Numbered from the stretch's first letter, positions 1-35,254 are shown. The stretch: DNA of 64,000 bases from Candidatus Omnitrophota bacterium (GCA_026387175.1 JAPLME010000011.1:1856-65855), one strand, 5' to 3'. The notes: a model not told the origin generated them from the sequence alone. Numbers and translations are program-made.

Positions 1-3000
1 CATAACTGGTTTAACGGTACTGCCGGTAATGTCTACTGGACCAACGCTTCAGGTGATGGCAAATGGTCCACGGCAGCTAACTGGTCAACCGGTGTTATTC
101 CACAGACAACAGACTCAGTTGTGTTCAATGCTACCTCGACCACAAACTGTTCAGTTAACCAGGCAGCTACGGTCACCAACCTCACTCTTGACACAGGTTA
201 CACCGGCACGGTTACCTTAGGTGCAACTTCAGGACAAGATCTTACCGTAACTAACTCTATCGCCATTAACACCAACGGCGGCATACTTGTTGACAACGGC
301 AGAGTAGTGAACTTTAAGAATGTTGCAATTGTTTCTGAAAGTAATCACCTGAATTCTACTGGCAACTGGAAGCAAACAGCCAGCGGAAATATATCGGCTT
401 ATTATCCCGAAGCTTTTAATAGCCTTGAATTGGCAAGCGGAGTTACCGCGACCTTAACCAATAGCATAAGTGTGAGGAAAGTTATTCTTGGCAGTAATGC
501 TACAATTACCGGAAATACAAGCTATCGTCTTTGGATATCTCCCACGGCAGATAATTTTATTACTCAGGGCACAGGCTCAAATATTTCTTTGCCAATTCAT
601 ATAACTGGTATAACCAGTAATATAAACCAAGGCGCCTTGAATGTTTCCGGGGCTGTTTTCCTTCGTGATAGCAACAATAAAATTTTGACCATGACTGGGG
701 ATTGGAATATTGGCACGTTGACGATATGGGGAACCAACGCGACTGGCTCCGTAGTTACCATTGATACCAACGGAAATAACTTAACTATAACAGGCGATTT
801 AGCTATATCAAACGGAGCCGTCAATTATGCCAATCAACAACTTGGCAAAATCCTCTTTAAAACCGGAAATCATACAATTACAGGTGATGTATATATCCTT
901 GGCCAAGGCCAATACACCCACGGCTACATTGACTTTGGCTCAAGCACGGTGAATGTAGGGGGGAACCTTGACTTTAGATACGCCTCAGTTACTCCCGGAA
1001 CATCAACTGTAAACCTTACCGGCGCTACCACTGCCAATATCTATAGTATTGTGGATTATACTTATAAAGACGCTACCTTAGATAATGCGGTATTGAATAC
1101 AGCGCCGTTCTATAAATTAACCTCAACCGTAGCAGGGAAGACCGTTAAATTTGAAGCAGGGAAGACCGTAACGATAGCCAATAACCTAAACCTTGCCGGA
1201 ACCGGAACAGGCATCAATCTCTTAACCTTAAACTCTACCACTTCCGGCACTGCCGCGAAACTAAATGTCGCGAGCGGCGCTACAGTTACCGGCATGAATT
1301 ACTTAAGTGTCAAGGATTCCGACGCTTCGAGCGGCAAGGGTATCGTCGCATCTAATTCGACCAATGTTAGTAATAATACCAACTGGTTCTTTGGCGCCGC
1401 CGGCAGTAATTATTGGGTTAATAACTCAGGCGACGGCAAGTGGTCCACTGCCGCTAACTGGTCCACCGGTAGCGTGCCAACTTCGGCTGACAATGTTGTG
1501 CTTAACTCCGCCTCAGCTTCAAACTGCAGTTTCGATACAGGGGTGGCTAATACCACAGTCGCTAGCCTCACTCTGGACACAGGCTATACCGGCACTCTGA
1601 CCTTAGCGCAAGGTATTACGGTCACCGGAACGCTTAAAGTAACCCAAGGCACATTTGACGCCGCTACCTATAATGTAAATGCCGCTAACTTCACTTCCAC
1701 AGGAATATTGGCTCGAACACTTAACTTAGGGACAGGGAGTACCTGGACCATATCAGGTAACTGGGACTCTTCAGGCGGTAATATTACGGTTAATCCAGGT
1801 ACCTCAACCGTTACTCTCACCGGAGACGGCACAGTTAAAGCCTGTCCCAGCGTTACTACTTTCTATAACCTCTCAGCGGCCGCATCAGGCATGACCACTA
1901 CTATTGCCCGGGATCCTTCTAAGAATATGTGGGTGGCGGGGGGATGGGGCGTTAATAACTACTTTGCCTACTCTTCTGACGGGATTACTTGGACAGGCTT
2001 GGGCACAAACACATGCCTTACCACCGTCCATAACATCTGCGGGAATGGTTCTAAGTTCGTGGCGGTAGGTACTGGCCCTAGTTCCATTGCCTACTCTACT
2101 AACGGGATTACCTGGACAGGCTTGGGCACAAGTATATTCTCAGGTAATGGCGCCTTTGGCGTCTGCTGGAACGGCTCTAAGTTCGTAGCTGTAGGGCATG
2201 GCGCTAATACCATTGCCTACTCTTATGATGGCATTGCCTGGGCAGCCGCTCCAGGCAGTACAAACATATTTTCAATCAACGCAAACGGCGCCGACATCTG
2301 CTGGAACGGCTCTAAGTTCGTTGCTGTAGGAGACGGAACTAATACCATTGCCTACTCCTCTGATGGCATTAACTGGACAGGCTTGGGCACAAGTATATTC
2401 TCAAGCTATGGCAAAAGCGTTGCCTGGAACGGCACTCGCTTTATAGCAACAGGTTCTGGCAATAGTACTCTTGCCTATTCCTCTGACGGTATTACCTGGG
2501 TAGGCTTAGGCACAAGCATATTCTCAAGCTATGGCTGGGGCGTCGCCTGGAACGGCACCCGTATTATAGCAACAGGCGCTGGCACCAATACCATTGCCTA
2601 CTCTTCTGATGGTATTACCTGGGTAGGCTTAGGCTCAAGTATATTCATAACCTTCGGAGGCGGCATCTGCTGGAATGGTTCTAAGTTCGTCGCTGGCGGG
2701 CAAAGCCCTGGCAGCGCCTATTCAACTGATGGGATCACCTGGACAAGCGGTGGAGTCCCAATGGCAGTCGGCTACGGCGTTTGCTCCATCCCAGCCCCCA
2801 AACTCGTTCCACCTATCCTATCAGATGACATAAAGGTCTCAAATAACCTCACATTAGGTGGAGGTACACTCACTCGTAACGGCACCGACCAGATAGCCTT
2901 AACCTTAACTAGCGCCACCCCTACAGTAACATTAGGAGGCTCTACGATTAGTAGCGGCACAATTATCAGATACGCTCCCGCAGCAGGCTCAGGCGCTACC

Positions 3001-6000
3001 ACTGTCACTATCCCAGGAGGCGCCTACAGCGGAGCTAAGATCGAAGCCTATACTAAGCTTAATTATAGCGTCGCCCAGCCCCAAGGAGCTGTCACATATC
3101 AGTTAGGGGGGAGCATCACCTCATTAGCCAATCTAAACATCTACGCTGATGTAGGGCTACCAGCCACTACATTCAGCTTAGTAAATGGCTCTAATAATTA
3201 TAACCTTACCTCTAATAGCCTTACATTAGGTAAAGATGAAGTAACTAACGGATCTGTCACATTTAATTCAGGAAGTGGCACAGTAGCTCTACCGTCACTT
3301 ACAAACCTCGTTCCTTCCACTAATAATAGCGGCTTACACACTCTTAACCTTAACACATCCACCTGGAATGTGGCAGGGGACTGGGATACCTCAGGCAATA
3401 ACATTATACTTAATCCAAGCACCTCAACTGTTAACCTTACCGATAACGGTATACTTAAGACTAACCCCTCTACCACAAGCTTCTATAACCTATCCTGCGC
3501 GGTCACAGGTAAGACCACAACAGTTGCCCGGGACCCTTCTAAGAATATGTGGGTAGCGGCAGGCGAAGGCACCAACTCTCTTGCCTACTCTTCTGATGGT
3601 ATTACCTGGGTAGGCTTAGGCACAAGTATATTATCATACCGTGGCCGAGGCGTTGCCTGGAACGGCACCCGTTTCGTAGCAACAGGCGCTGGCGCCGACT
3701 CCCTTGCTTATTCTTCCAATGGGATTAATTGGACAGGCCTTGGCTCAAGCATATTCTCCGGCACTGGCCGCTACGTTGCCTGGAACGGCACCCGTTTCGT
3801 AACAGTAGGCACTGGCGCTAACTCCATTGCTTACTCCTCCGACGGTACTAATTGGACTGGGGTGACTACCACAAGCATATTCTCAGCCTATGGCTACGGC
3901 ATTGCCTGGAACGGCACCCGCTTCGTAGCAACGGGCAGCGGCACCAACAACTCCATTGCTTACTCCTTCGATGGCATTACTTGGACAGGCCTTGGCACAA
4001 GCATATTTTCAAGCAGTGGTACCGGCATTGCTTGGAACGGCACCCGTTTCGTGGCAGTGGGTAGTGGCACCAACTCCATTACCTACTCTTCCGATGGCAT
4101 TACCTGGACCGGTTTAGGTAAAAGCATATTCTCAGTCAATGGCTACGATGTTGCCTGGAACGGCACCCGTTTCGTAACAGTAGGCACTGGCACCAACTGC
4201 ATTGCCTACTCTTCAGATGGCATCACCTGGACAGGTTTAGGCACAAGTGTATTCTCAAGCTATGGCTACAGCATCGGCTCTTGCCCTGCTCCTAAACTTA
4301 CTCCACCCGTCCTAAGCGATGACATACCGGTCTTGAATACCCTCACCTTAGGCGGCGGCACACTCACCCGTAACGGCACCGACCAGGTAGCCTTAACATT
4401 ACGTAAGGACACCGGCAATTTCTTAGTGTTAAATAACTCCACGATCAGTAATAATGCTATTATCCGCTTCGCTCCTCTGGCTAACGCCTCAAGTCCTAAG
4501 ACTGTCTCTATCCCCGGAGGCGACTACGGCACAGCTCAAGTAGAAGCCTATGTCCAGACTAATAACGCTGTAGCCCAGCCTCAAGGAGCTATCAGCTATC
4601 AACTAGCGGGAAATATCGCGGGGGCAAACAGCTTAAATATCTACGCTGACTCTAATCTCTCCACAACCTTTGGCTTAAATAGCTACAATCTTTATACCGC
4701 TACTCCAGGGCTCCTCTATTTAGGTAAAGACTGTGCTCAAGGCGCAGTTACCTTTAATTCAGGTGCAGGCGCGGTAACCTTAGCCGCAACACCTCTCTCA
4801 AGCATAGTCGCGGATAACGCCGGAAGCCACACGCTCAATATGAACTCTTCCACCTGGAATATCTCCGGTGACTGGTGTCCTGAAGGTCTGACAAGCGGCA
4901 CCTCCAGCTCACTCAGTGTAGCCCCCAGCACATCCACTGTCAATATCACCGGCACCGGCACTACCACAATCTATGGCTCAAAGACCGCTACTCCTTCGAC
5001 ACCGTTTAATAACCTGTATACTCCTGTCGGCGGCTTAACTGACAAAACTATCAAGGTCAATGCCGGAAGCACACTTCAGATAGCCGGTATTCTGGGATTG
5101 CGGGGACAGGGCGAGAGCAGCCCGCTTAATTTCCAAAGCACTACCGCAGGAACTGCAGCTAATCTTAACGTTCTAGGCTCGACCGCCAATATGCAATACC
5201 TTAATGTCACAGACTCCAATGCTTCGGGCGGGAAGAAGATTCTCGCGTGTTCTTCCACTATTGACACCTACAGCTTGAATCATAACTGGGTTAACGGCAT
5301 TGTCGGTAATGTCTATTGGACCAATGCCTCTGGCGACGGCTTATGGTCCACCGCGGCTAACTGGTCCACAGGAGCTGTGCCGGTTTCGACAGACTCAGTC
5401 GTATTCAACGCTACCTCGACCACACCCTGCTCGGTTAACCAAGCAGCGACGGTTACAAACCTCACTATGGACACAGGATACACCGGCACAGTGACTTTAA
5501 GCGCAACGTCAGGACAGGATTTAACCGTTACAGGCTCTATTACCATTAGTACCAACAGCGGTACGCTAGTAGATAATGGACGAACAGTTAATTTCAAGAA
5601 TGTCTCTATTGCTTATGAAAACACGCCCGTGCATCTTACTTCTACGGGTAATTGGAAAATGATTTCCAGCGGAACTATTTTTGGCCCTCAAGATAGTTCT
5701 AAAATTAATAGCCTTGAGCTGGCAGCCGGAGTTACCGCGAATTTGTTGACAAATTGCACTGTTAACATAAGAAACCTTATCCTTGGAAATAATTCCGTGC
5801 TTACCGGTTATTATATGATAATTGTGCCTACAACCAATAATTTTATTACCCAGGGTACCGGAGCAACTATTTCTGCGACTTTAGAGATTTGTCCAGGTGA
5901 CATGAACCAGGGCGCTCTGACTACATCCGGACCTGTAAAGATTACCTGGGGCGCTAACCGTACTTTGACCATGACCGGAGATTGGAATATTGGTGGATAC

Positions 6001-9000
6001 CTTATGGTATTTGGTTCATCAAGTTTTGGCACAACCGGAATGATGACCCTGGACACTAACGGCAAAAATCTTACTGTAGGCGGTGACTTACAATTAGGAA
6101 ATAGTGACTCTTCGTATGCCAACGATTTTCTCGGAAAAATTCTGTTTAAGAACGGTACCCACACTATCGGAGGCAAAATATTTGTTATGAACGGAAACAC
6201 TCCTTCAACCTGCTACACCCATGGCTACTTTGACTTTGGCCAAAGCACGGTAAACGTAGGGGGGAACCTTGACTTTAGGTGCGCCTCAGTAACTCCCGGA
6301 ACTTCAACCGTAAATCTTACCGGCACTACTGCCGCCACGATTTATTCAATAGTTGACTATGCCTATAAAGACACCATCTTAGACACTCCGGTATTGAACA
6401 CAGCGCCGTTCTATAATTTAGCCTCAAGCGCGGCAAGCAAGATCATTAAATTTGAGGCAGGCAAGACCGTAACAGTAGCCAATAATCTAAGCCTTGCCGG
6501 TGCAAGCGGTAACCTCTTAACCTTAAACTCTACTACCGCGGGCACTGCAGCTAACCTGAATATTTTAGGCACAGCCACCGGTATGAACTACCTGAGTGTT
6601 AAGGACTCCAATGCTTCAGGCGGGAAAGGTATCATCACTTATAACTCCACAAATGTTAGCAACAATACCAACTGGTTCTTTGGCACCGCCGGTAATAATT
6701 ACTGGCTCAATGCCTCCGGCGACGGCTTGTGGTCCACACCCGCTAACTGGTCCACAGGCATTGTGCCGGTCTCGGGCGACAATGTTTATTTCAACACGAC
6801 CTCAACTTCAGACTGCAGTTTCGATACAGGAGCGACCAATACGACAGTCGCAAGCCTTACCTTAGATACAAATTACACCGGTACCCTGACCTTAGCGCAA
6901 GGTATTACAGTCACCGGAACACTTAAAGTGACCCAGGGGACATTTGACGCCGCTACCTATAATGTAAACGCCGCTAACTTCACTTCCACAGGAGCCTTAG
7001 CTCGTACACTAAACTTAGGAACAGGGAGTACTTGGACCATTGCAGGCAACTGGGACTCATCAGGAGGTAACATCACAGTTAACCCCGGTACTTCAACAGT
7101 TACTCTTACAGGAACCGGCACAGTTAAAGCCTGTCCCAGTGTCACTACTTTCTATAACCTCTCAGCGGCCGCGTCAGGCAAGACTACGACGATTGCCCGG
7201 GATCCGTCGAAGAATATATGGGTGGCGACTGGCGTTGGCGCTAACACTCTTGCCTACTCTTCTGATGGTACTAATTGGACAGGCTTGGGCTCAAGTATAT
7301 TCTCAGGCAATGGTTACGGCGCTGCCTGGAACGGCACCCACTTCGTAGCAACGGGCTATGGCACCAACTCCCTTGCCCACTCTTATGACGGTATTATCTG
7401 GACTGGCCTAGGCACAAGTATATTCTCAACCCAAGGCCTTGGCATCTGTTGGAACGGCACCAAGTTTGTGGCTGTAGGAGAAGGCACTAATACAATTGCC
7501 TACTCCTCTAATGGGATTACCTGGACAGGCTTAAGCTCAAGCATATTCTCAGTCTTTGGCGATGGCGTTGCCTGGAACGGCACACGCTTCGTCGCAGTAG
7601 GCTATGGCACCAACTCCATTACCTATTCCCCCGATGGGATTACATGGACTGGGGTGACCGGCAAAAGTATATTCTCAGATTACGGCATGAACATTGCCTG
7701 GAACGGCACCCGCTTCGTCGCAGTAGGCCAAGGCACCAACTCCCTAGCTTACTCTTCTGACGGTATTATATGGATAGGTTTAGGCACAAGCATATTCTCA
7801 ACTTCTGGCCGCGGCGTCGCCTGGAACGGCACCCGCTTCGTCGCAGTAGGTTGGGGCACCAATTCCATCGCTTACTCTTCTGACGGCATCACCTGGACAG
7901 GACTCGGCTATAGCGGATTATCATCCCACGGCAACAGCGTTGCCTGGAACGGCACTAGCTTTGTAGCAATAGGCTTAGGCACTAACAATATTGCCTACTC
8001 TTCCGATGGCATTACCTGGACTGGAGTAACCGGCACAAGCATATTCTCAGTCAATGGTGTTGGCGTTGCCTCTTGCCTTGCCCCCAAACTCACTCCACCC
8101 ATCCTTAGCGATGGCATAAAGATCACAAATGGTCTTACACTAAACGGCGGCACACTCACTCGTAACAGCACCGACCAGGTAGCCTTATCCTTAACGAGCA
8201 ATACTCCTACATTAACATTAGGCTCTTCCACTATCAGTAATAGCGCTATTATTAGATATGCCCCTGTGGCCACTTCAGGCGCTACCACCGTCACTATCCC
8301 CGGAGGCGCTTACTCAGGCGCCAAGATAGAAGCTTATTCTAAGACTAATTATGGTGTTACCCAGCCTCAAGGGTCTATAACATACAAATTAGGGGGCAGT
8401 ATCACCTCAGCAGCTAATCTAAACATCTACGCAGATGTAGGACTACCTAGCACTACATTCAGCTTAGTAAATGGCGCCAGTAACTATAACCTCACCTCCA
8501 CATCCCTTACAATAGGTAAGGATGAAGTAACTAACGGCACTATTACATTTAACTCTGGAAGCGGCACAGTAGCTCTTGCCTCACTTACAAACTTAGTGCC
8601 TTCCACTAATAATAGCGGTCTACACACATTAAACCTCAATACATCCACCTGGAATGTGGCAGGGGACTGGGATACATCAGGCAATAACATCATACTTAAT
8701 CCAAGCACCTCAACCGTTAACCTTACAGGCTCAGGTACACTAAAGACCAGCCCGAACACTACAAGCTTCTATAACTTATCCTGCGCGGCATCAGGGAAGA
8801 CCACTACAGTCGCCAGAGATCCTTCTAAGAATATATGGGTGGCGGCAGGCCAAGGCACCAACTCTCTTGCTTATTCTTATGATGGTATTAACTGGGTAGG
8901 TTTGGGCATAAATATATTCGCGATCAACGGCTATGGTGCTTGTTGGAATGGCTCTAAGTTCATTGTCGTAGGCCAAGGCACTAACACCCTTGCCTATTCC

Positions 9001-12000
9001 TCTGATGGCATCAACTGGACAGGCTTAGGCACAAGCATATTCTCAACCCGAGGTTATGGCATTGCCTGGAACGGCACCCGTTTCGTAGCAGGAGGCGGCG
9101 GCGTTAACTTCCTCGCCTACTCTTCTGACGGTACTACTTGGACCGGTTTAGGCACAAGCGTATTTTCAACCGCCGGCTATGGCGTCGCCTGGAACGGCAC
9201 CTGTTTTGTATCAGTGGGCAGCGGCACTAATTCCATTGCTTACTCTTCCGATGGAATTACTTGGACCGGTTTAGGCACAAGCGTATTTTCAACCGCCGGC
9301 AATGGCGTCGCCTGGAACGGCACGCGTTTCGTTGCAGTAGGCTATGGCACTACCTCTCCGGGTACTAATTCCATTGCCTATTCTTCCGATGGAATTACTT
9401 GGACCGGTTTAGGCACAAGCATATTTTCGACAGGAATTGGTTACGGCGTCGCCTGGAACGGCACGCGTTTCATAGCAACTGGTGGAGGCACCAACTCCCT
9501 TGGATACTCTTCCGATGGTATTATCTGGACAGGCCAAGCCGTATTCTTAAGTCAAGGCAATGGTGTCTGCTGGAACGGCTCTAAGTTTGTAGCCGTAGGA
9601 TATGCAGGCGGCACTAACTCTATCGCTTACTCCTCCGATGGTATTATCTGGACCGGCTTAGGCTCAAGCATATTCTCATACTATGGTCGTAGTGTTTGCT
9701 CCAGCTCCGCCCCGAAGCTCACTCCGCCCATCTTAAGCGACGACATCCCTGTCCTGAACACCCTCACCTTAGGCGGCGGCACACTCACTCGTAACGGCAC
9801 CGACCAGGTGGCCTTAACCTTACGTAAGGACACCGGCAATTTCTTAGTCTTAAATAACTCCACAATCAGCAATAACGCTATTATCCGCTTTGCTCCTTTG
9901 GCTAACGCCACAAGCGCTAAGACCGTCTCTATCCCAGGAGGCGACTATGGCACCGCTCAATTAGAAGCCTATGTCCAGACTAATAATGCTGTCGATCAGC
10001 CTCAAGGACCTATCAGCTATCAGTTAGCGGGAAATATCGCGGGGGCAAACAGCTTAAACATTTACGCCGACTCTAACCTCTCCACCACCTTTGGCTTAAA
10101 TAGCTACAATCTCTATACCGCCACTCCCGGACTCCTCTATTTAGGTAAAGACTGCGCTCGAGGCGCAGTTACCTTTAATTCAGGCGCAGGCGCGGTAACC
10201 TTAGCCGCTACACCTCTCTCAAGCATAGTCGCTGATAACGCAGGAGCTCACACACTCAATATGAATAGCTCCACCTGGAATATCTCCGGTGACTGGTGTC
10301 CTGAGAGCCAGACCAGCGGTACCTCAAGCGCTCTAAGCGTAGTCCCTGGCACATCCACTGTTAATATCACCGGCACCGGCGCCACCACAATCTATGGTTC
10401 AAAAACCGCCACTCCTTCGACGCCGCTTTATAACCTTTACACACCCAGCGGCGGCTTAGTGGATAAGGTTATCAAAGTTAATGCCGGAAGCACGCTCCAG
10501 ATAGCAGGGACCTTGAGATTGCAGGGCCAGAATTCAGGCAGCCCTCTCTATTTCCAGAGCACCGCCTTAGGTACGCCCGCTAGCCTGAATCTTCAAGGCT
10601 CAGCCGTGAGTATGCAATATCTTGTTGTCAAAGATTCCGACGCCACCAGTGGAAAGAAGATCCTTGCCTACGACTCCACTATCGACACTTACAGCTTGAA
10701 TCATAATTGGATCGGCGGTACAGTCGGTATCGTTTACTGGACCAATGCCTCCGGCGACGGCTTATGGTCCACGGCTGCTAACTGGTCCACGGGCGCTGTG
10801 CCGGTTTCGACAGACTCAGTCATATTTAATGTTGTCTCAGGTTCAAGCCCAACCTCAAACTGCTCGGTTAACCAGGCAGTTACGGTTGCTAACCTCACCC
10901 TTGATACCGGCTATACCGGCACAGTTATCTTAAGCTCAACTTCAGGGCAGGATTTAACTGTTACCGGTTCCATCAATATTAATACGAACGGCGGCGCACT
11001 GAATGATAACGGCAGAAATGTAAATTTTGTGAATGCTTCTATTGTCAACGAAGGAAACCGTTTATATTCCAATGGCAACTGGAAGATGACAGCCAACGGT
11101 AATATTAAAAATGCTAACGGCGGTAATATATTTAATAAAACCTTTGAGGTGGGAGCCGGAGTTACCGCGACTTTAACAAGTGATATTTGGACGAAAGGTC
11201 TCATTCTGGGGAATAACGCTGTTGTTACAGGAGGATCAACAATAGTATTTTATTATCCCCCTAATGATTTCATCGCTCAAGGCGCAGGCTCAGTTATTTC
11301 TTCTACTATAGATATCGATCTAAGTGGTAACAGAAGCCAGGGCGCTTTGACTACAACTTCAAGCGTAAACTTTTATTGGCATACTGCTACTTTAACTATG
11401 ACTGATAATTGGCATATCGGTGGATATCTTTCTATTTACAGCGGTTCTTCTGGCGCAACTGCCATCTTAGATACTAACGGCAAAAATCTTACTGTAGACG
11501 GAAATTTATACTTGGGGAATACCGTTTATTATGGTCAAATTCTTTTTAAAACTGGCACGCATACAATAGGCGGAAATATGTATGTCAACCAATCAGGCAG
11601 CCCTAGCCACGGTTATTTTGATTTTGGCTCAAGCACAGTTAATGTAGCAGGTAATGTCGATTTCCGTTATGCTTCGGTAAAGCCTGGCACATCAACAATA
11701 GTGTTTACCGGTACCAATGCCGCAACTATCCGCGCGCTCACAAGCGATGATACGTCCTTTGACGCGTTAAGCCTAAACAATACAGCGCCGTTCTATAAAT
11801 TAACCTCGACCGTTGCAGGCAAGACCATTAACTTTGAAGCAGGGAAGACCGTAACGGTAGCGAATAACTTAACTCTTGCCGGAACCGGGATGGGCGCTAA
11901 TCTCCTGACCTTAAACTCTACCGTAGCAGGCACTACCGCTAATTTAAATGTCGCGGGCACAGCCACCGGCATGAATTACTTAAGCGTCAAAGATTCCGAT

Positions 12001-15000
12001 GCTTCGATCGGGAAAGGTATTGTCGCTTATAATTCTACAAATGTTAGCAATAACACCAACTGGTATTTTGGCGCCTCGGGTAATAATTACTGGCTCAATG
12101 CCTCAGGCGATGGCAAGTGGTCGACGCCGACTAACTGGTCCACGGGAATTGTGCCGACCTTGGGCGACAACGTCTATTTTAACACCACCTCAACCTCAAA
12201 TTGCAGTTTCGATACGGGAGTGGTTAATACGTCAGTTAATAGCCTCACTTTAGATACGGGTTACACCGGCACCCTTACTTTGGCTAAAAATATCACGGTT
12301 ACAACAGCCCTCACTGTAACCCAAGGCACATTTAACGCCGCTACCTATAATGTAAACGCGGCGAACTTCACCTCCACAGGAGCCTTAGCCCGCGCATTGA
12401 ATTTAGGAACAGGAAGTATCTGGACCATCTCAGGTAACTGGGATTCTTCAGGAGGCAACATTACGGTTAACCCCGGCACATCAACCGTTACTCTTACAGG
12501 AGACGGCACGGTTAAGGCTTGTCCCAGCGTTACTACTTTCTATAACCTCTCAGCCGCCGCCTCAGGCAAGACTACGACAATTGCCCGGGATCCTTCTAAG
12601 AATATATGGGTGGCAGGAGGTTATAACCCTAATAGCGCTGCTTACTCTGTTAATGAAGGAGTTAACTGGACCAAATCATCAAGTTTGGCAAGTATACTGG
12701 ATCAGGCTTGTCAAGGTATCGCCTGGAACGGCACCCGCTTTGTAGCAATGGGTAGTACTTCCAATTCTATCGCCTATTCTTCTGATGGTGTTACATGGAT
12801 AGCAGCGCCTAACTCAAAAAACATATTTTCAACCCGAGGCTACGGCATCGCCTGGAACGGCACCCGTTGGGTAGGAGTAGGCGGTGGCATCAATTCCATT
12901 GCCTATTCTTCTGACGGTATTATCTGGACAGGTTTAGGCACAATAAGCACAAACATATTCTCAATCTATGGCACCAATATCGCCTGGAACGGAAACCGCT
13001 TCGTAGCAGTAGGCAATGGTACGAATAACACCCTTGCTTATTCCTCTGACGGAATCACCTGGACCGGCTTAGGTACAAGCGTATTTTCGTCCAACGGCCG
13101 CGGTCTTGCCTGGAACGGCACCCGCTTCGTAGCCACGGGAAGCGGCACCAATTCCATTGCCTATTCCTCCGACGGCATTAATTGGATAGGTTTAGGTACA
13201 AGCGTATTCTCAAATAACGGCACAAGTGTCGCCTGGAACGGCACCCGCTTCGTAGCCACGGGAAGCGGCACCAATTCCATTGCCTATTCCTCCGATGGCA
13301 TTAATTGGACAGGTCTGGGTACTGTAAGCACAAACATATTCTCAATCTATGGCACCAATATCGCCTGGAACGGAAATCGCTTTGTAGCGGTAGGTTACAG
13401 CGGCGGTGGCACCTCCGTTGCCTATTCTTCCGATGGCATTATCTGGACGGCAGCGACCGTGTCCGGGATATTCTCAGGTGATGGATATGCTATCGCCTCT
13501 TCTCCTGCCCCTAAACTTACTCCACCCATCCTAAGCGATGACATAAAAGTCTCAAATGCCCTCACATTAGGTGGTGGCACACTCACTCGTAACGGCACCG
13601 ACGTAGTAGCTTTAACATTAACTAGCGCTACTCCTACAGTAACATTAGGCGGTTCCACCATCAGTAATAACGCGATCATAAGATACGCTCCTGTAGCCGG
13701 TGCAAGTGATACGATTGTCAATATACCAGGAGGTGCCTACAGCGGAGCCAGGATCGAAGCCTATACCAAGCGTAATGGAAGCATTACACAGCCTCAAGGA
13801 GCCCTCACGTATCGGTTAGGAGGCAGTATTACCTCGGCGGCTAGCCTAAACATCTATGCGGATGTGGGCCTGCCTGCAACCATCTTTAACCTATATGATG
13901 GCTCTAATAGCTATAATCTTGCTTCTTCCGGACTTATATTAGGTAAGGATGAAGTTACCAATGGCAATATTACTCTTAACTCAGGGACAGGTACGGTAGC
14001 TCTTAATTCACTTACAGGGCTCGTTCCTTCCACTAATAATAGCGGCTCACATATCTTAAATCTTAATTCATCCACCTGGAATGTAGCAGGGGACTGGGAT
14101 ACTTCAGGCAATAACATCGTACTTAATCCGGGCACTTCAACAGTTAACCTTACAGACACAGGCACTATAAAGACCAGCCCGAATACTACAAGCTTCTATA
14201 ACCTCTCAGCCGCGGCAAACGGGAAGACCACCACAGTTGCTCGTGACCCTTCCAAGAATATCTGGGTGGCGGTAGGTAACGGCGCCAACACCATTGCCTA
14301 TTCTTCCGACGGAATCACATGGACAGGCTTAGGCGCAGGCATATTATCAAGCTACAGCTATGGCGTCTGCTGGAACGGCTCCAAGTTCGTGGCGGTAGGG
14401 CAAGGCACCAACTCCATTGCCTACTCTTCAGACGGCATCATCTGGACAGGAGTGACCGTTCATAGCGTATTCTCAACCAACGGCCGTGGCGTCTGCTGGA
14501 ACGGCTCCAAGTTCGTGGCGGTAGGGCAAGGCACCAACTCCATTGCCTACTCTTCAGACGGCATCATCTGGACAGGTTTAGGTACAAGCATATTCTCATA
14601 TGGCTATAACGTCTGCTGGAACGGCTCCAAGTTCGTGGCTGTAGGAGGTAGCATTAACTCCATTGCCTACTCCTCTGACGGCATTATCTGGACAGGCTTA
14701 GGCGCAGGCATATTCTCACCCTATAGCCATGGTGTCTGCTGGAACGGCTCCAAGTTCGTGGCTGTAGGAGAAGGTAACAACACCATTGCCTACTCTTCCG
14801 ATGGTATTACCTGGACCGGTTTAGGCTACAGTATATTCTCACCCTATGGCCATGGCATTGCCTGGAACGGCTCCAAGTTCGTGGCTGTAGGAGGTAGCAT
14901 TAACTCCATTGCCTACTCCTCTGATGGCATTACCTGGACCGGTTTAGGCACAAGCTCATTCTTATACGGCCGTGGCGTCTGTTCTATCCTAACTCCCAAG

Positions 15001-18000
15001 CTTACTCCGCCTGTCTTAAGTGATGATATACCGGTCCTAAATACCCTCATCTTAGGCGGCGGCACACTCACTCGTAACGGCACCGATCAGGTAGCTTTAA
15101 CCTTGCGTAACAACGATAGCGATTCCTTAGCTTTGAATAGTTCCACGATCAGTAATAACGCGATTATCCGCTTTGCTCCACCGGCTCCCGGCGCAATGGA
15201 TGGAGTAGCGGAGCCTATCACTGTAACTATCCCGGCAGGTAACTATGGCACAGCGCAAGTAGAAGCTTACGCTCAGTTTAATAATAGCGTCGATCAACCT
15301 CAAGGAGTTATCAGCTATAAACTGGCAGGAGATATCACCGCGGCGGGCAGTTTAAATATCTACGCGGATGCAGGGCTCCCTGCAACCACCTTTAGCCTGA
15401 ATGACGGCGCGAATAATTATAATCTTTACAGCTCTACTCCGGGGCTCATATATTTAGGTAAAGATTGCGCTCAAGGAGCCGTTACATTTAACTCCGGATC
15501 GGGCACGGTAAATGTAACATCCTTTGGTATCATTCCGAATAATGCCGGCAGCCATACCGTAAATCTTAATTCATCCACATGGAACATTTCCGGAGACTGG
15601 CAGCCGGAAGGAGAAGGGAACAGCGCTTCGAATTTGAATGCCGGGACCTCCACCTTCCACTATATCGGCACCGGCGCCGCCACCTTATATGGTCTAAAAT
15701 CCGGCCCTAACATTAATACTATGCCTTTCTACAACCTGACCTCTACGGCGGCAGGCAAGACACTCAACTTTGAGGCAGGCAAGACCGTAAAGATAGCCAA
15801 TAACATAAGCCTCACCGGCGGATCGAGCAAGATGCTATTACGCAGTACTAGCACCGGTTCCTACTGGAACATAAATGTCGCGCCCGCGGCCACAGCCACA
15901 TTCATGAGCTATCTGGATGTTAAAGACTCCGACGCGAGTTCCGGCAATACTATCGCCGCCACAGCCTGTATCGGCAGTACACAGCATAACCTTAACTGGA
16001 CCTTTAGCACAGGCGGCGCTGCGATCTGGATCGCCGATGGCGCTAAGAACTGGTCCGACGCCACCGCCTGGAGCACGGTCAGTGTTCCCACGACGACCGG
16101 AACGGCGGAGATCCTATTTACAGGCGACCATAAGGGAGCTTGCACTATAAATGCCGCGGCAAATGTAAAGAGCATTAATATCCTGAGCGGTTACACGGGA
16201 ACCATCACCCAGGCCGGCACAGTTACTGCCGGGTCGGGCGGCTACGCTCAGGCAGACGGCGTATTTAACTGCGGAGGACAGGCTGTTAACGTAAACGGGC
16301 CGTTTACATTGTCCGGAGGGACATTCGACGCCGCAAACTCGACCATAGCAATAACCGGCGGTAATATCAATCTCTCGGGCGGCGCGTTCGCTCCCGTCGC
16401 CTCGACGGTGACGCTCTCCGGGACCTGTGCCATTAATTCCGATATCCCGGCCCTTAATATCATGACCTTTAATCCCGGGACATATACCATTGCCGCGGGC
16501 AAGACCATCAGCGCGCCCGCCAACAGCTTACTGAGCTTCGCCGGCACCGGCACATCGAACATGGTCACATTAAGGAGCTCCGCGCCCGGGACGAGATGGA
16601 ACCTGGCTAATGCCTCAGGCTCCACAGTTACGCCTGTCTATACGGATGTTATGGATTCTAACGCTTCTAATCTTATCTCCGCCGCTAATTCCAAGGACTC
16701 CGGAAATAATATCAACTGGGTGTGCACCGGCACGCTCACTAATGCCAGTGTCCTGCCGGCATCATTGGTCGCGGGGGTAAGCGGCAATGTAACGGTGAAC
16801 TTTACCACGGTAAACCCTATTCCGAATAACGGCAAGATCGTAGTTACCCTCCCCAGCAACTTTACGTTTAATTCCGGCGGCGCCACGGCAGTCTCCGGCG
16901 CCCCGACAGGCATAGATGGAAATTTCTCAGTATCAGTGGAAGGCCCATCGGCCATCATTACCAGATCGGGCGGCACATCCGCGGGCGCGGGAGCCAAGTC
17001 GATCATTCTCACTAACATAAAGAACCCGACTGCCCCTTGCACTACAGGGACGTATTCTATCGCCACCAGAACTTCCGCGGATGCTTCTATCGACAGCTTG
17101 ACCGGGATCGCCGGAAGCGTTATCACTGCCGCCAGCGTGACGAGCTGGGACCTGAATATGAATGCCGGAACTCTTACGCTTAATTTCAACGCCGGTATAA
17201 CCGCCGCCAGCCTTGCCGCTACAGGCATAACGATACAGAACACAATTGCTTCACCGAGCGCTTCCTATACATTAACCGACAGCACTACCGCAAGCTCAAA
17301 CGGCACGGCTATCACGATCACGTTATCCGATACGGACAGAAATACGATTAAGGCTACCGCTAATCTCGCGAAAGCCCAGAACAGCAGTTGCCTCAGCATC
17401 ACCTCGGCAGCCTTTATGGATCTGTATAATAACCCTATAACAGCTATCACCGGATCTTTGGCGATGAATGTCACGAACTATACGACGGATATCACGGCTC
17501 CGGGGTTGTCGAGCTGGACGCTGGATATGAATACGCATATGGTGGAGATGACCTTTAACGAACCTGTCGCCATAAGCTCATTCGATCAGACGAAATTCAC
17601 GATACAGGATGACTCGGGCCATGCTTATACTTTAGCCGCGTCGAACAATACTTATATCGAGGACCCGTATGACAATATGCTGGCGGGCGGCTATGCTATA
17701 GGCTCGACTAACAACATGAAGCTGCGCATCAAGCTTACCACGAAAGATTTTAACGCGCTGGTGGACGACGCCAATATAGCCAAGGCGCGCTCATCCTCAT
17801 ATTTAGTTATCGCTACGGAAAGCGGTGTGCGGGACAAAGCGACTTTAGCCAACGCACTGGCCGCCATCCCGGCGACGAATGCCGCGAGCTATACCGCCAA
17901 CTCCGTCGTCGCCGCCCAGTTCTACGTCACAACATCATCCTATGCGACCGCAACGACACTGACAGCCGGAACCTTTAAGGATATAGTCATAAAGGCGTAT

Positions 18001-21000
18001 GATAACCTTGGTTACCGCACCCCGGCTTACACAGGGGACAAGACGGTGGTCTTCTCAGACGCCGGGCTTTCCGCGGATCAAATCGCGCCTAAAGCCAAAG
18101 ACAAGAATAACGTGTCTATAGTTTTTGGTACCGGCACCACGATCGCCTTCACAAACGGAAGAGGCACAAGCACTATTACCCTGTATAAGAAAGAGGTGGT
18201 GCTGATAAAAGCGACCGTTGGCGCTATTACCACCGCCGATAATTATTCCCTGACGGTAACCGTTAATCCGGATGTGAAGGCTAAGCTGGTCTTCACCACA
18301 CAGCCGTCCGCCACCGGCATTATCAATAGCGCTTTAACCCAGCAGCCCGTCGTAGTCATCAGGGACCAATACGGCAACCGGACCGCGGATACGGATGAAA
18401 TCCAGATTAACGCGTCGACCGCCGGAATATTTTTTAATCCTGCCGCCGGCACGTTATCGGCGACTTCTAACCCGTTGGCCGCGGTAGACGGAGAAGCGGT
18501 ATTCGCCGGGGTTAAATACAACATCGCGGAGACGATATATATATATGCAAGTTCCGGTAATCTTGCCGGCGCCTATTCCGGGGCTATCGAGCTTAGCTCA
18601 GGCGTGTCCACTACAGTGGAGGCTGCCGCCCAGCCGCAGGCAAGCTTCCCGCTCATTCCTACGAATGACATCGAGACCGAGAAGTTCACTGTCCTGAAAT
18701 TTAAGATTAAAGACGCCGGTGATGACGGGACTCCTACTCTGATAGACAGAATAAAGATAGCCATTACCGGCACGGCCCAGCCGAGCGCGTCGACCGATAT
18801 CGCCTGGGCGGAATTAAGGGCGAATAACGGGGGAGACCATCAGGTTACTTTTGTTGCCGGGCCCTCAGGTTTCGAGGTTGACGGCTCCACCACTTATATC
18901 GTTTTCGGAAACGAACCTGATGCCCGCAGCGATTCGACCCTGGGCGCAATAGCGGCCGACGGTACGATACCGGATGGCGGCGAGATAGAATATACGGTAA
19001 AGATCTATATGAAACCCTCGAAGTTGACCGCCACGGACAAACAGGGCTACAATTTCACTACGAATGAGTCGCTCATCGGTGTAGATATGGGCGTATCGTC
19101 GAGGATGACGACAGACAGCGGGAAGATAACGCCTGTTGTCGGGCAGATCACGGTGAATGTATCGAATTTTGAGATCGTGGATCAGACCCCGCCTAATAAT
19201 GCCGCGATCAACGTTATCGCGGGCATCGCGTCTTATCTCCAGGTAAGGGCCACTGATAGCAATAAGAATATAGACATAGACTATGCCGGCGTGAAGAGCC
19301 TTATCTTCTCGGGATTGAGCTCGATAAACGGTTATACCCCCACGATAGGAACCACGACTAAGGTAACCTTTGGCGCCCCTACTTCAATAAATTTCGTAGC
19401 GGGCCAGTCATATAATTTAACAGGTACCGCGGTTGCCTTAACTGCTTATGCCAAAGGCACGGAAAACCTCAGGGCAGCGGATTATAATAAAACTCCGCCG
19501 CCATACGGCGTCTTCCCCTGCGCGGTGACGGTGGACAGCACCACGGCAAACAGTATAGGGCTAGCCGCAGGCAACAACCAGAGCGGATTGGGAGGGCGCG
19601 CATTGTCCAATCCTTTAGCGGCTATCGTTCGCGATCTTTACGGCAACCCCGTTAATTCCGGCACAGCCGTAACTTTCGCGGTATCGAGCGAGCCTGCCGG
19701 CACAACAACTCACGCCGGTTTGGATACACCCACGACTTCTACCGGCTCAAACGGCCAGGCTTCCACTCATCTTACTCTGGGCAACGCTAAAGGCACATAT
19801 CAGGTAACGGCAACATCCGGCTCGCTTGCCGGATCTCCCGTTACCTTCAGCGCCTCCGCCCGCGTCCCGGCGACACTATACATATTTGGCGGCAATCACC
19901 AGTCGGCGGTTGTGGCCACTCAGCTGCCGCTCGCTCTTGTGGTCCAGCTTTTAGATAGCGAGACTATCCCTCAGCCTATCGCGGGTGAGACCATAAACTT
20001 CGCGATAAAGGCCCAACCCACCGGCGCGGGCTCTTTCCTGTCAAGCTCTACGGCTGTCACTGACGCGGAAGGCAAGGCTCAGGTACCTCAGATCCTATTC
20101 ACATTGGGAATGATAGCGGGAACTGACGCTTATGAGGTCAGGGCGACTTACTCGAATTTAACGCCGGCTGATTTCACTGCCACCGCTGCCCCATCGCCGG
20201 CTTATAAGGCGGTTTTGGACGGCCCGGCGTCCGTGAATGCGGGTATTGTCGCCACGTTCAGTATAAATATTAAGGATACCTACGATAACGCGAGCACCAT
20301 TGCCACAACACCTATGGCATTTAATATTACCGCCACTCCGTCTCTGGGGGCGTTTTACAGCGATGCCGCGTGTACGAGCGCTCCGATCACTACGATGACC
20401 GTTCCGGGCGGAAGCAGTACAGCGACGTTCTATTTCAAAAGCTCCGTAACTGGAACCGCTAACATTGCAGCTACCACTACAGATGTCAGATTGGATGCTG
20501 ACCATCGGGTCGGTTCCATCACCGGCTTCACTGTTATGCCGGAAAGCCTGCATCACTTTACAGTTACCGCGGCAAATACGGACCCGATGACAGTAGGTGA
20601 GCCAAGGACGCTCAGCATAAAAGCCCGTGATATATATGATAACGTGAAAACCGATTTGAATGCCACTTTTAATGTAACATTCTCCGGTGCCACCGTCTCT
20701 CCGTCTCCCTCGAGCGCAGCGCTGGGCACGGCGCCGACCTGTTCGGGCCACGGCAGTGAAGCCGTAGGCGCTAACATAACAGGCACACCCGTGGCGTTTG
20801 GCCAGAGCACAAGCATAAGTTTCGCCAATGGCGCGGCAACCACCATATTTACGCCATATAAGGCCGAAGCAGCGCAGATCACAGCGACCTCAGGCATCAC
20901 TACGCCGACTCCTTTAAGTTTAACGGTAAAACACGGCGCCGCGCACCATCTGAAATTCCATGATAATATTCTCAGCCCCCAGACCGCGGGCACAGCCTTT

Positions 21001-26415: not shown

Positions 26416-26426
26416 TAAAGGCTGTA

Positions 26427-26660
26427 ATGTTTAAAGCCACAATCGTAACTCCCAATAAAGTATTGTTCGATGGTGAGGCCTGGAGCGTTTTTTTGCCCGG
26501 GGCTACCGGTGAGTTTGAAATTCTGGAGATGCATAAGGCGATCGTGAGCCTTTTGCGTCAGGGAAATATTGTGATTAACTGGGATATAGAGATACCGGTA
26601 ACCAGCGGCGCGGTCAGGATGTCCGGCGATGAGCTGGTGGCGATAGTAGAGTCAGATTAG
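26427..26660 (+). CDS. atpC: F-type ATP synthase epsilon-like subunit, N-terminal beta-sandwich domain only (77 aa)
   Basis: MFKATIVTPNKVLFDGEAWSVFLPGATGEFEILEMHKAIVSLL matches the epsilon N-domain pattern (GEA..V.LPG..GEFGIL.GH). The start was moved from the track's 26379 to the ATG at 26427 to avoid overlapping the upstream gene. The protein lacks the C-terminal helical hairpin. Confidence 0.55.
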   Translation: MFKATIVTPNKVLFDGEAWSVFLPGATGEFEILEMHKAIVSLLRQGNIVINWDIEIPVTSGAVRMSGDELVAIVESD

Positions 26661-26662
26661 AG

Positions 26663-26689
26663 CAGCTTTCAGCAAAAAACTGATAGCTG
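26663..26689 (+). promoter_or_regulatory. Intergenic RNA stem-loop (10-bp stem with one mismatch, 7-nt A-rich loop) between atpC and atpF
   Basis: cagctttcag-caaaaaa-ctgatagctg. The same motif recurs after atpD. Confidence 0.35.
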
Positions 26690-26705
26690 TAACAAGGAGT
26701 CATAA

Positions 26706-27422: not shown

Positions 27423-27434
27423 AGAGGCGCTGAT

Positions 27435-27647: not shown

Positions 27648-27661
27648 GGCAAACCGCTATA

Positions 27662-30048: not shown

Positions 30049-31453
<1,405 letters not shown>

Positions 31454-35253: not shown

Positions 35254-35254
35254 G

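What the first reader, a model, noticed from the sequence alone, without database searches (positions are those of the whole stretch)
1..16250. Three tandem super-repeats of 5.3-5.4 kb (about 1,760-1,800 aa), plus a truncated fourth module start, inside one gene
The motif HNW..G..G.VYWTNASGDG.WSTAANWSTG.VP restarts at 1, 5281 and 10702. Each unit repeats the same order of sub-domains: an A beta-helix, a B beta-helix, propeller 1, a linker with C-PAPKL-PP and GGGTLTRNGTDQ, propeller 2, and a second linker ending in DWCPE. A diverged fourth start at about 15984 leads into the unique C-terminal region. Units are about 80-92% identical at the nucleotide level, so they are old enough to have diverged but are still recombinogenic. 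This is a substrate for copy-number variation between strains or cells, meaning phase or length variation of a surface fibre.
Basis: seen in the sequence. Interest (0 to 1): 0.7.

Follow-up and report, generated by a model that had tools for sequence, protein, structure and literature searches.

The report
Triplicated 5.3-kb module in giant gene
The first 16 kb of the window really are three in-frame copies of a 5.3-5.4 kb module inside one giant bacterial surface-protein gene, but the copies are old and diverged, so this is an ordinary example of the repeat-built giant proteins already described in Omnitrophota, not a fast-switching locus.

Summary
Observation confirmed. One reading frame is open from window base 1, where it runs off the left edge, to the stop at 25032 (at least 8,343 aa). 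It holds three tandem units at 1-5280, 5281-10701 and 10702-15981, then a short diverged fourth head module at 15982-16725.

The stated identity is too high. Units are 69-76% identical in DNA and 67-75% in protein. dS is 0.8-1.1 and dN/dS is 0.22. The longest exact match between units is 36 nt.

Each unit reads A stalk, B stalk, propeller, linker, propeller, linker, cap. AlphaFold2 supports the propeller fold. The beta-helix nature of the stalks is only inferred.

A syntenic 3,017-aa protein from an Omnitrophota genome has one A module and no propellers. A metagenome relative has the same modules in different numbers, and modules cluster by genome. Copy number therefore changes between lineages.

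Nothing indicates phase variation or ongoing recombination between units. Only the 41-aa propeller blades show recent turnover.

The head at base 1 is of the type that follows a cap, so three units is probably a lower bound.

Most likely function (inferred): a multivalent attachment fibre, encoded next to an ATPase and pilus/type II secretion cluster, as published for Omnitrophota. New member of a known kind.

The parts
1..25032 (+). 3' part (8,343 codons) of one giant gene; start codon and N-terminus lie left of the window
   Evidence: No stop in frame 1 from base 1 to 25032. No hydrophobic TM-like segment in the visible part.
1..5280 (+). Super-unit 1 (1,760 aa)
   Evidence: Self-blastn diagonals. 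Three-way protein alignment A1. 75% aa and 76% nt identity to unit 2.
5281..10701 (+). Super-unit 2 (1,807 aa; 141 nt longer than the others, mainly because of one extra blade)
10702..15981 (+). Super-unit 3 (1,760 aa), the most diverged, especially its end cap (50% nt identity)
1..1371 (+). A module of unit 1: head motif, long stalk segment (beta-helix inferred), cap ending in NSTNVSNNTNW. Equivalents at 5281-6660 and 10702-12048
   Evidence: Boundaries. 48-57% identical to aa 329-790 of P0001. Distant relatives of A/B modules lie in proteins with TPS and PATR domains. Fold not verified.
1372..1929 (+). B module of unit 1: second head plus short stalk. Equivalents at 6661-7218 and 12049-12606. 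The most conserved part along with the linkers (81-84% nt)
1930..2775 (+). Propeller 1 of unit 1, seven 41-aa blades with the motif YSSDGITW. Equivalents at 7219-8061 and 12607-13488
   Evidence: Blade list. 123-nt tandem arrays. Family with 10,380 cluster representatives at E<=0.001.
2776..3555 (+). Linker 1 of unit 1 (APKLxPP, GGGTLTRNGTDQ ... STWNVAGDW ... ARDPSKNxWV). Equivalents at 8062-8841 and 13489-14268
   Evidence: Alignment A4. Only distant relatives in other phyla. 60% identical copies in L014.
3556..4275 (+). Propeller 2 of unit 1, six blades. Equivalents at 8842-9696 (seven blades) and 14269-14979 (six blades)
4276..4875 (+). Linker 2 of unit 1, ending in GDWCPE. Equivalents at 9697-10296 and 14980-15600
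   Evidence: Units 1 and 2 are 89% identical in nt here (dS 0.45), the only young-looking tract.
4876..5280 (+). End cap of unit 1 (... MQYLxVxDSxAxxGKKILA ... SLN), paralogous to the cap of the A module. Equivalents at 10297-10701 and 15601-15981
   Evidence: P0001 aa 559-791 aligns to the ends of units 2 and 3.
9484..9606 (+). Extra 41-aa blade in propeller 2 of unit 2, absent from units 1 and 3
   Evidence: 41-column gap in alignment A1. Coordinates.
14361..14576 (+). Adjacent blades of propeller 2 in unit 3 sharing a 90-nt exact match (14361-14450 and 14487-14576), the longest exact repeat in the region
   Evidence: Blades 1-5 of this propeller are 78-85% identical to each other in the matches listed and average 69% to those of units 1 and 2.
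15982..16725 (+). Fourth, short and diverged head-stalk-cap module (aa 5328-5575)
   Evidence: 34-38% identity to the other heads over about 77 aa. Ends in the cap motif DSGNNINW.
16726..25032 (+). Non-repeated C-terminal region. aa 6010-8168 are 42% and the last 40 aa 72% identical to the matching parts of P0001. One weak Big_1 Ig-like hit, below Pfam's curated cut-off. Conserved C-terminal end ...NNKPIVEGWFEQG
25054..26415 (+). 453-aa gene 22 nt downstream of the giant gene, conserved in synteny
   Evidence: 56% identical to part of the 645-aa GGDEF protein that follows P0001 in L009. No Pfam or NCBIfam hit.
26379..31455 (+). F-type ATPase genes (epsilon, b/delta fusion, c, alpha, gamma, beta)
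   Evidence: Same order and 63-84% identity for alpha, gamma and beta in L009.
31495..39972 (+). Type II secretion / type IV pilus-like cluster (GspE, GspF, MA peptidase, prepilin-like proteins, GspK, PilM-PilN, PilO)
   Evidence: GspE is 80% identical to that of L009.

Best explanation
The region is the repetitive middle part of a giant secreted or surface-exposed protein of an Omnitrophota-like bacterium.

An ancestral protein of about 3,000 aa probably had this layout: signal anchor, glycine-rich domain, one head-stalk-cap module, then a long C-terminal region with at most weak Ig-like similarity. It was lengthened by hierarchical tandem duplication. Blades of 41 aa make six- or seven-bladed propellers. 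A propeller-plus-linker cassette was duplicated. The whole A-B-(propeller-linker)x2-cap unit of about 1,760 aa was then copied at least three times.

The copies are old, with dS about 1, and each is kept by purifying selection. The stalk and linker parts are the most conserved. The propellers and the long A stalk segment are the most diverged.

The most likely working model is a long fibre that presents at least six propellers as ligand-binding heads, probably glycan-binding. These would give multivalent attachment to other cells, and possibly several specificities. Export would be by the Sec pathway, possibly helped by the adjacent pilus/type II secretion machinery.

Shown: the repeat anatomy, the divergence, the selection, the propeller fold, the synteny, and the different module numbers in relatives. 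Inferred: beta-helical stalks, surface location, binding function and export route.
For: - Repeats and single open frame.
- Divergence and selection: nt identity 69-76%, dS 0.81-1.14, dN/dS 0.22. dN is 0.03-0.19 in B and the linkers against 0.20-0.40 in the propellers and A helix.
- Propeller family: very large and unannotated, with 10,380 representatives, many of them multi-propeller giants.
- Syntenic ortholog P0001 (3,017 aa) from Omnitrophota MAG GCA_043803685.1. It has an N-terminal hydrophobic anchor, one A module and no propellers. It is followed by a homolog of the 453-aa gene, then ATPase, then GspE/F.
- L014 relative: the same N-terminus and the same modules in different numbers. Modules cluster by genome.
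- Relatives of the A/B modules occur in TPS/PATR exoproteins.
- No TM-like segment in 8,343 aa.
- Neighbourhood: ATPase, pilus/T2SS, TolC/HlyD/ABC-2, LamB porin and a sugar ABC importer. [quoted passage not shown]
Against: - No experimental or expression data exist for this protein.
- The N-terminus of this gene is not in the window, so the signal anchor is known only from relatives.
- The stalk and linker folds are unverified. The 1,183-aa model failed with pLDDT 42, and the linker part of the second model scored 41-82 by 10-residue block.
- No sequence match to any solved structure or curated family supports a lectin function.
- No secretin gene is seen in the window.
- The organism is assigned only through one MAG's label and synteny.
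Confidence: 0.6

Rival explanations
1. Contingency locus. The units recombine with each other often enough that cells or strains of one population carry 2-, 3-, 4- or more-unit alleles, giving length or phase variation of the fibre.
For: - The units are in frame, tandem and collinear.
- Relatives differ in module number.
- Linker 2 of units 1 and 2 is 89% identical with dS 0.45, which suggests a past conversion or a younger duplication.
- Blades show recent turnover and one blade-number difference.
- Short-read assemblies break inside the gene.
Against: - dS is 0.8-1.1 between units.
- No exact match between units exceeds 36 nt, and only 1 to 3 matches of 30 nt or more exist per pair.
- There is no concerted evolution of whole units.
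- All units are under purifying selection.
- From general knowledge: homologous recombination falls steeply with divergence of this size, and known length-variable surface proteins carry near-identical repeats.
- No allele with another unit number was found, but the available data could not have shown one.
Confidence: 0.1
2. The propellers are catalytic rather than binding modules. The protein would then be a multi-enzyme array of Asp-box-type glycoside hydrolases that digests surface polysaccharides of prey or host.
For: - The blade motif resembles the Asp-box found in sialidases and GH74 enzymes.
- GH74 xyloglucanases are among the Foldseek matches.
- Many relatives carry a faint precomputed hit to Glyco_hydro_43_rel.
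- Published proposals see Omnitrophota giant proteins as degrading cell walls.
- A porin and a sugar importer lie downstream.
Against: - No glycoside hydrolase family reaches significance in hmmscan.
- The best structural matches are non-catalytic propellers (LRP, designed SAKe, WD40).
- The blades are highly regular and have been amplified recently. From general knowledge this is typical of binding propellers, not of propellers with a differentiated active site.
Confidence: 0.12
3. The protein is a structural coat or envelope-layer protein. The repeats would give size and surface coverage rather than specific attachment to another cell.
For: [quoted passage not shown]
- The sequence is rich in Thr, Ser, Gly and Asn.
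Against: - The coat-type proteins described carry many TM helices. None is seen here in 8,343 aa.
- The propellers diverge faster than the scaffold parts, which suits ligand recognition better than packing.
Confidence: 0.13
4. Assembly artefact. The three units are collapsed or mis-joined copies from different loci or strains.
For: - Repeats of this kind often break or confuse assemblies.
- The unit junctions at 5281 and 10702 are not covered by any independent contig I could obtain.
Against: - The units differ by 24-31% in DNA yet keep one frame for 25 kb, with dN/dS 0.22.
- Unit ends and heads join in the same way at both junctions.
- An independent short-read contig confirms 15150-36415 at 100% identity, including the junction of unit 3 with the fourth module.
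- L014 shows the same kind of tandem modules in another organism.
Confidence: 0.02

Closest known systems
Very long and giant proteins of Omnitrophota, in particular the 'tandem-repeat scaffold' class (Nielsen & Lui 2026, 10.64898/2026.06.07.730766; West-Roberts et al. 2023, 10.1101/2023.11.21.568195; Seymour et al. 2023, PMC10066038)
   Same: - Omnitrophota-like genome.
- A single very long ORF built largely from repeated domains.
- Largely without Pfam matches.
- Diverged rather than identical nucleotide repeats.
- Flanked by pilus/type II secretion genes and sugar uptake genes.
- Short-read assemblies break in it.
- An adhesion role has been proposed for such proteins.
   Different: - It has none of the Archaeovorin features: no SecA DEAD domain, HEAT repeats, enzyme domains or TM helices in the visible part.
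- It has no dockerin or TSP3 repeats.
- The repeat is hierarchical (blade, propeller-linker cassette, 1,760-aa unit). It is made of an unannotated propeller plus head-stalk-cap modules.
- The visible length of 8,343 aa is below the 10,000-aa cut-off of the catalogue, although the gene is incomplete.
Highly repetitive beta-propellers amplified from single blades (Pereira & Lupas 2022, PMC9218822)
   Same: - 41-aa blades with high identity within a propeller, up to 88% nt and with a 90-nt exact match.
- Little positional orthology between copies of the same propeller.
- Six- and seven-bladed versions at the same position.
   Different: - Here the propellers are embedded six times in a larger repeat unit.
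- The blade motif SxDGxTW is one residue shorter than the canonical Asp-box SxDxGxTW.
- No curated propeller family matches.
Beta-helical two-partner-secretion exoproteins and PATR-repeat adhesins (FHA-like TpsA proteins)
   Same: - Distant relatives of the A and B head-stalk-cap modules occur in proteins that carry TPS and PATR domains.
- They are long, Thr/Ser/Gly/Asn-rich, all-beta and extracellular.
   Different: - No precomputed Pfam hit (hence no TPS domain) is on record for the complete ortholog P0001; the L014 N-terminus resembles P0001's by eye but was not scanned.
- No TpsB partner gene is seen.
- The neighbouring machinery is type II secretion / type IV pilus-like.
Length-variable repeat adhesins of pathogens (for example Alp/Rib-family or Bap-like proteins; recalled from general knowledge)
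   Same: Tandem in-frame repeats in a surface protein whose number differs between relatives.
   Different: Those repeats are short (tens to about 100 aa) and near-identical in DNA, which is what makes them recombine. Here the units are 1,760 aa, 24-31% diverged, and share no exact tract above 36 nt.

Membership tests
Omnitrophota very long proteins, tandem-repeat scaffold class | Encoded in an Omnitrophota genome | tested here: met
   Indirect. The best homolog and syntenic ortholog P0001 lies in NCBI MAG GCA_043803685.1, labelled Candidatus Omnitrophota. Neighbours are 56-84% identical and in the same order. No phylogenetic marker gene was placed.
Omnitrophota very long proteins, tandem-repeat scaffold class | Length of at least 10,000 aa (catalogue cut-off), or an ORF above 20 kb (Seymour 2023) | tested here: inconclusive
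   The visible ORF is 25,032 nt and 8,343 aa, so the 20-kb criterion is met. The 5' end is missing, and the first head is of the post-cap type, so the true length is larger.
Omnitrophota very long proteins, tandem-repeat scaffold class | One domain type dominates by copy number | tested here: met
   40 blades in six propellers, plus six linkers and seven head modules. The dominating domain is not a Pfam family, however.
Omnitrophota very long proteins, tandem-repeat scaffold class | Signal peptide or TM helices | tested here: inconclusive
   None in the visible 8,343 aa. The relatives P0001 and L014 have an N-terminal hydrophobic anchor.
Omnitrophota very long proteins, tandem-repeat scaffold class | Secretion or pilus genes in the flank | tested here: met
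   GspE, GspF, prepilin-like proteins, GspK, PilM/N and PilO at 31495-39972.
Archaeovorin-type giant proteins | SecA DEAD-like domain, many TM helices, HEAT repeats and enzyme domains | tested here: not met
   Pfam finds only the Amnionless-like head motif, a Big_1 match below Pfam's curated cut-off and a marginal Ig_GEX2_N match. No TM-like segment.
Dockerin-type giant proteins | Dockerin and TSP3 repeats | tested here: not met
   No such Pfam hits in unit 1 or in the C-terminal 3,016 aa.
Asp-box (BNR) beta-propellers | Beta-propeller fold | tested here: met
Asp-box (BNR) beta-propellers | SxDxGxTW motif in the blades | tested here: not met
   The blade motif is S-S-D-G-I-T-W, one residue shorter. 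The canonical motif is as given in PMC9218822.
Asp-box (BNR) beta-propellers | Significant match to the BNR, Sortilin-Vps10 or PSII_BNR profiles | tested here: not met
   No such hit at E<=10 for the window propellers. Ycf48 and GH74 appear only as structural matches among many unrelated propellers.
Recombination-driven length- or phase-variable repeat loci | Repeat copies near-identical in DNA, with long exact tracts | tested here: not met
   69-76% nt identity. Longest exact tract between units is 36 nt.
Recombination-driven length- or phase-variable repeat loci | Alleles with different repeat numbers within one population | not testable with these tools
   The only same-strain contigs start at 15150 or later. 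No fragments of the units were found in the protein collection. An exact 49-mer from unit 1 was absent from both contig collections.
Two-partner-secretion (TpsA) exoproteins | N-terminal TPS domain and a TpsB partner | tested here: inconclusive
   The window lacks the N-terminus. P0001 has no precomputed Pfam hit and its N-terminus, read by eye, is a hydrophobic anchor plus a Gly-rich domain; the L014 N-terminus looks similar but was not scanned. No TpsB-like gene in the window.

The most novel reading that the evidence does not exclude
The propeller-linker cassettes and the 1,760-aa units could be a modular host-recognition array that each Omnitrophota lineage re-amplifies on its own. Cassette number and propeller surfaces would then track the host or prey range of these ultra-small episymbionts. 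Populations might also hold alleles with different unit numbers, hidden until now by short-read assembly breaks. The visible three units would then be part of a much longer and variable array.
Probability: 0.15. Interest if true: 0.55.

Novelty: new member of a known kind. Interest (0 to 1): 0.3.

Why it matters
The case gives a clean, fully resolved example of how a bacterial giant gene grows. An ortholog of about 3,000 aa without the array, a relative with another arrangement, and this gene together show stepwise, lineage-specific amplification at three nested scales. All copies are kept under selection.

It also links an abundant but uncurated propeller family (more than 10,000 cluster representatives) to the putative attachment apparatus of Omnitrophota. 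That gives concrete modules to express and test for ligand binding.

It does not open a new kind of mechanism.

Tried and rejected
1. Extending the gene upstream. An exact 49-mer from unit 1 was absent from genome contigs and metagenome contigs. The N-terminus and the total unit number stay unknown.
2. Surveying alleles. The same-strain Logan contigs reach only to 15150. The protein collection holds no fragments of the units.
3. Folding 1,183 aa (B module to linker 2) with a three-row alignment gave pLDDT 42 and is unusable. The beta-helix claim therefore rests on inference.
4. Sequence searches of a whole unit, the linkers and the A modules against PDB, Pfam and NCBIfam found nothing meaningful. 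The only results were chance-level matches to protein S and RadA, and the Amnionless-like head motif.
5. The AlphaFold database fold library was not available.
6. A search with the C-terminal 900 aa found only five relatives, too few for a survey of ortholog lengths.
7. Assembly artefact was considered and rejected; see the rival explanations.
8. Linker relatives in Desulfobulbaceae, Chromatiaceae and Planctomycetia MAGs are distant (31-42%) and lack propellers, so they say nothing about the super-unit.

Full report

Yes, with two corrections.

Frame 1 of the + strand is open from window base 1 to the stop at 25032. That is 8,343 codons, and the other frames are full of stops. The ORF lister shows 121..25032 only because it needs a start codon. 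The gene therefore enters the window already running, and its 5' end is unknown.

A k-mer offset count and a self-blastn of 1-25032 give long collinear diagonals, all at E = 0:
- offset about 5301: 913-4235 vs 6214-9533, 75.8% identity
- offset about 5409: 3561-9533 vs 8970-14942, 73.1%
- offset about 10683: 1096-4886 vs 11779-15611, 72.4%

The head motif (NW..G..G..YW.N.SGDG.WST..NWSTG.VP) restarts at aa 1, 1761 and 3568, that is nt 1, 5281 and 10702. A second B-type copy lies about 1.4 kb into each unit. This cannot be chance.

The units are 1-5280, 5281-10701 and 10702-15981, or 1,760, 1,807 and 1,760 aa.

**2. Corrections to the observation**

First, identity is lower than stated:

| Measure | Units 1-2 | Units 1-3 | Units 2-3 |
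|---|---|---|---|
| Protein identity | 75% | 67% | 68% |
| Codon-aligned DNA identity | 76% | 69% | 70% |

By sub-domain, DNA identity ranges from 50% (end cap of unit 3) to 89% (linker 2 of units 1 and 2). The '80-92%' holds only for the B module and some linker pairs.

Second, 'three' is what is visible. In the two relatives with a complete N-terminus (P0001 and L014), the first head lacks the stretch N.NW..G..G..YW.N.SGDG. Every head that follows a cap has it, in both relatives and in units 2 and 3. The window begins with exactly that post-cap form, HNWFNGTAGNVYWTNASGDG. By inference, at least one more cap-terminated module lies upstream.

The 'fourth start' is real, at aa 5328-5575 (nt 15982-16725). 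It is a short module of about 248 aa with head, stalk and cap, only 34-38% identical to the other heads.

**3. Anatomy of a unit**

Coordinates are for unit 1; the equivalents in units 2 and 3 come.

| Sub-domain | aa | Note |
|---|---|---|
| A: head, long stalk, cap | 1-457 | |
| B: head, short stalk | 458-643 | |
| Propeller 1 | 644-925 | 7 blades |
| Linker 1 | 926-1185 | |
| Propeller 2 | 1186-1425 | 6 blades; 7 in unit 2 |
| Linker 2 | 1426-1625 | |
| End cap | 1626-1760 | paralogous to the cap of A |

- The extra 41-aa blade at 9484-9606 accounts for most of the 141 nt by which unit 2 exceeds units 1 and 3.
- The repeat is hierarchical. Blades of 123 nt build propellers. A propeller-plus-linker cassette occurs twice per unit; linker 1 and linker 2 are 59-64% identical. 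The whole unit occurs at least three times.
- There are 40 blades in all.

**4. How old are the copies, and do they still interact?**

Nei-Gojobori estimates on the codon alignment give dS 0.81 for units 1-2 and 1.09-1.14 for pairs with unit 3. dN/dS is 0.22 for every pair. The copies are old and each is under purifying selection.

dN is lowest in the B module and the linkers (0.03-0.19). It is highest in the propellers and the A stalk (0.20-0.40).

The longest exact match between two units is 35-36 nt. There are only 1-3 matches of 30 nt or more per pair, and none of 40 nt or more. The only young-looking tract is linker 2 of units 1 and 2, with dS 0.45.

Blades behave differently:
- Adjacent blades share exact matches of up to 90 nt (14361 vs 14487).
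- Many blades are most similar to a neighbour in the same propeller rather than to the blade at the same position in another unit. Blades 1-5 of unit 3 propeller 2 are 78-85% identical to each other in the matches listed. Blades 3 and 6 of unit 3 propeller 1 are 88% identical.

Turnover therefore continues at the 123-nt scale, as described for repetitive propellers in general (PMC9218822). It does not continue at the 5.3-kb scale.

**5. What the modules are**

A whole unit has no match in PDB sequences, NCBIfam or Pfam, apart from the short Amnionless-like head motif.

*Propeller.*
- An AlphaFold2 model of propeller 2 plus linker 2 (window 3469-4875, 47-row alignment) scored pLDDT 78-97 by 10-residue block over residues about 25-270. 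Strands recur at a period of about 41 aa, consistent with six blades. The linker part scored only 41-82 by block.
- Foldseek matches six-bladed propellers at E 1e-9 to 1e-7: LRP YWTD domains, designed SAKe proteins, Ycf48 and GH74.
- The fold is therefore a beta-propeller, but no superfamily can be assigned.
- The blade motif SSDGITW resembles the Asp-box SxDxGxTW but is one residue shorter. No BNR-type profile matches it.

*Propeller family.* The family is very large and uncurated:
- 10,380 cluster representatives at E<=0.001 and 1,192 at E<=1e-30, many of them multi-propeller giants of 3,000-7,500 aa.
- 1,438 hits at E<=1e-10 in the other collection.
- None of the source names shown is more specific than 'hypothetical protein' or a bare gene-call line.
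- The frequent precomputed PF22847 label is a faint Glyco_hydro_43_rel hit that I could not reproduce.

*A, B, linker and cap modules.* Their beta-helix nature is inferred, not shown. The 1,183-aa model failed at pLDDT 42, although it was all-beta. Distant relatives of A and B lie in proteins with TPS and PATR domains, which are beta-helical exoproteins.

**6. Relatives and evolution**

*P0001* (3,017 aa; NCBI MAG GCA_043803685.1, Candidatus Omnitrophota) is complete:
- It has an N-terminal hydrophobic anchor, a Gly-rich domain and one A module. That module (aa 329-790) is 48-57% identical to the three A modules.
- From aa 830 on it matches giant aa 6010-8343: 42% identity over aa 830-2921 and 72% over its last 40 aa.
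- It has no B module, propeller or linker.
- It is syntenic. It is followed by a homolog of the 453-aa gene (56% identity), then ATPase alpha, gamma and beta (70, 63 and 84%), then GspE (80%) and GspF.

*L014* (JGI contig Ga0315279_10000772) carries a gene of at least 4,793 aa with the same N-terminus. Its layout is A-B-(propeller-linker)x3-cap, then B-(propeller-linker)x1-cap, then A-...-propeller-linker..., running off the locus.

*Modules cluster by genome*:

| Comparison | Identity |
|---|---|
| L014 linkers, among themselves | 72-86% |
| L014 linkers vs window linkers | 55-65% |
| B modules within a genome | 84-88% |
| B modules between genomes | 64-66% |

The arrays were therefore amplified or homogenised separately in each lineage. 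Module number is evolutionarily labile between lineages.

**7. Context and likely function**

Downstream of the giant gene, all on the same strand, lie:
- a 453-aa gene;
- F-type ATPase genes;
- a type II secretion / type IV pilus-like cluster;
- LptF/G-family permease, TolC/HlyD/ABC-2, a LamB porin and a sugar ABC importer.

This matches published descriptions. Omnitrophota giant genes lie near T2SS-like and carbohydrate import genes (10.1101/2023.11.21.568195; 10.64898/2026.06.07.730766). F-type ATPase and type-4 pilus genes are co-located in loci proposed to serve attachment to host cells (PMC10066038). The catalogue of Omnitrophota long proteins already has a 'tandem-repeat scaffold' class. 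It notes that nucleotide tandems have mostly decayed while the protein repeats persist, which is exactly the state seen here.

I therefore read the protein as a long secreted or anchored fibre. It would carry at least six propellers as binding heads on conserved stalk segments. This function is inferred, with confidence about 0.6.

The rivals are:
- a frequently recombining contingency locus (0.10);
- catalytic propellers (0.12);
- a coat protein (0.13);
- an assembly artefact (0.02).

An independent contig confirms 15150-36415 at 100% identity. Diverged in-frame copies under selection cannot be produced by misassembly.

**8. Verdict**

The stated identity is too high, and the inference of current recombination or phase variation is unsupported.

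This is a new member of a known kind: the repeat-built long proteins of Omnitrophota. Its nested architecture is well resolved, and its relatives are informative. Interest is modest.

Noticed in passing
window 25054-26415; L009 9738-11675: The 453-aa gene just after the giant gene is 56% identical to about aa 53-483 of the 645-aa GGDEF protein at the same position in the Omnitrophota MAG. The window copy appears to lack the GGDEF end. Published work notes c-di-GMP-related genes next to giant genes.
   Followed up: partly
window 26379-39972: F-type ATPase genes (epsilon, a b/delta fusion at 26706-27422, c, alpha, gamma, beta; no a subunit seen) are followed directly by GspE, GspF, prepilin-like genes, GspK, a PilM-PilN fusion and PilO. 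No secretin gene was seen in the window. This looks like the co-located 'symbiotic F-type ATPase/T4aP locus' of Seymour et al. 2023. The clade of the alpha subunit was not tested.
   Followed up: partly
window 15088-15200 (start of L001 at 15150): The independent short-read contig L001 ends at window 15150. No repeated 20-mer or longer from the visible window lies there; the nearest is the 36-nt match at 15051-15086. The break is unexplained. It could reflect a k-mer shared with an unseen upstream unit.
   Followed up: partly
window 8842-9696 versus 3556-4275 and 14269-14979: The same propeller position has seven blades in unit 2 but six in units 1 and 3. All five complete propellers of the relative L014 have seven.
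   Followed up: yes
L015 and L016, 3001-5331: A 776-aa single-propeller relative (P0179, found on at least 18 contigs, some from Tara Oceans) lies next to a MutS gene of more than 1,000 aa and several small unannotated genes. The origin of these contigs was not examined.
   Followed up: no
proteins P0020, P0170, P0171: One 90%-identity cluster of a multi-propeller giant protein holds members of 7,015, 7,017 and 3,885 aa. These may be length variants or truncated gene calls.
   Followed up: no
window 24556-24612: A short 27-nt tandem repeat (2.1 copies) encodes a Gly/Thr/Ala/Ser-rich stretch near the C-terminus of the giant protein.
   Followed up: no
window 1-24000 versus 24001-64000: GC skew on the + strand is negative across nearly all of the giant gene and positive in the genes downstream, although all are on the same strand. 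This is probably an effect of the Thr/Ser/Asn/Ala-rich codon content of the giant gene.
   Followed up: no
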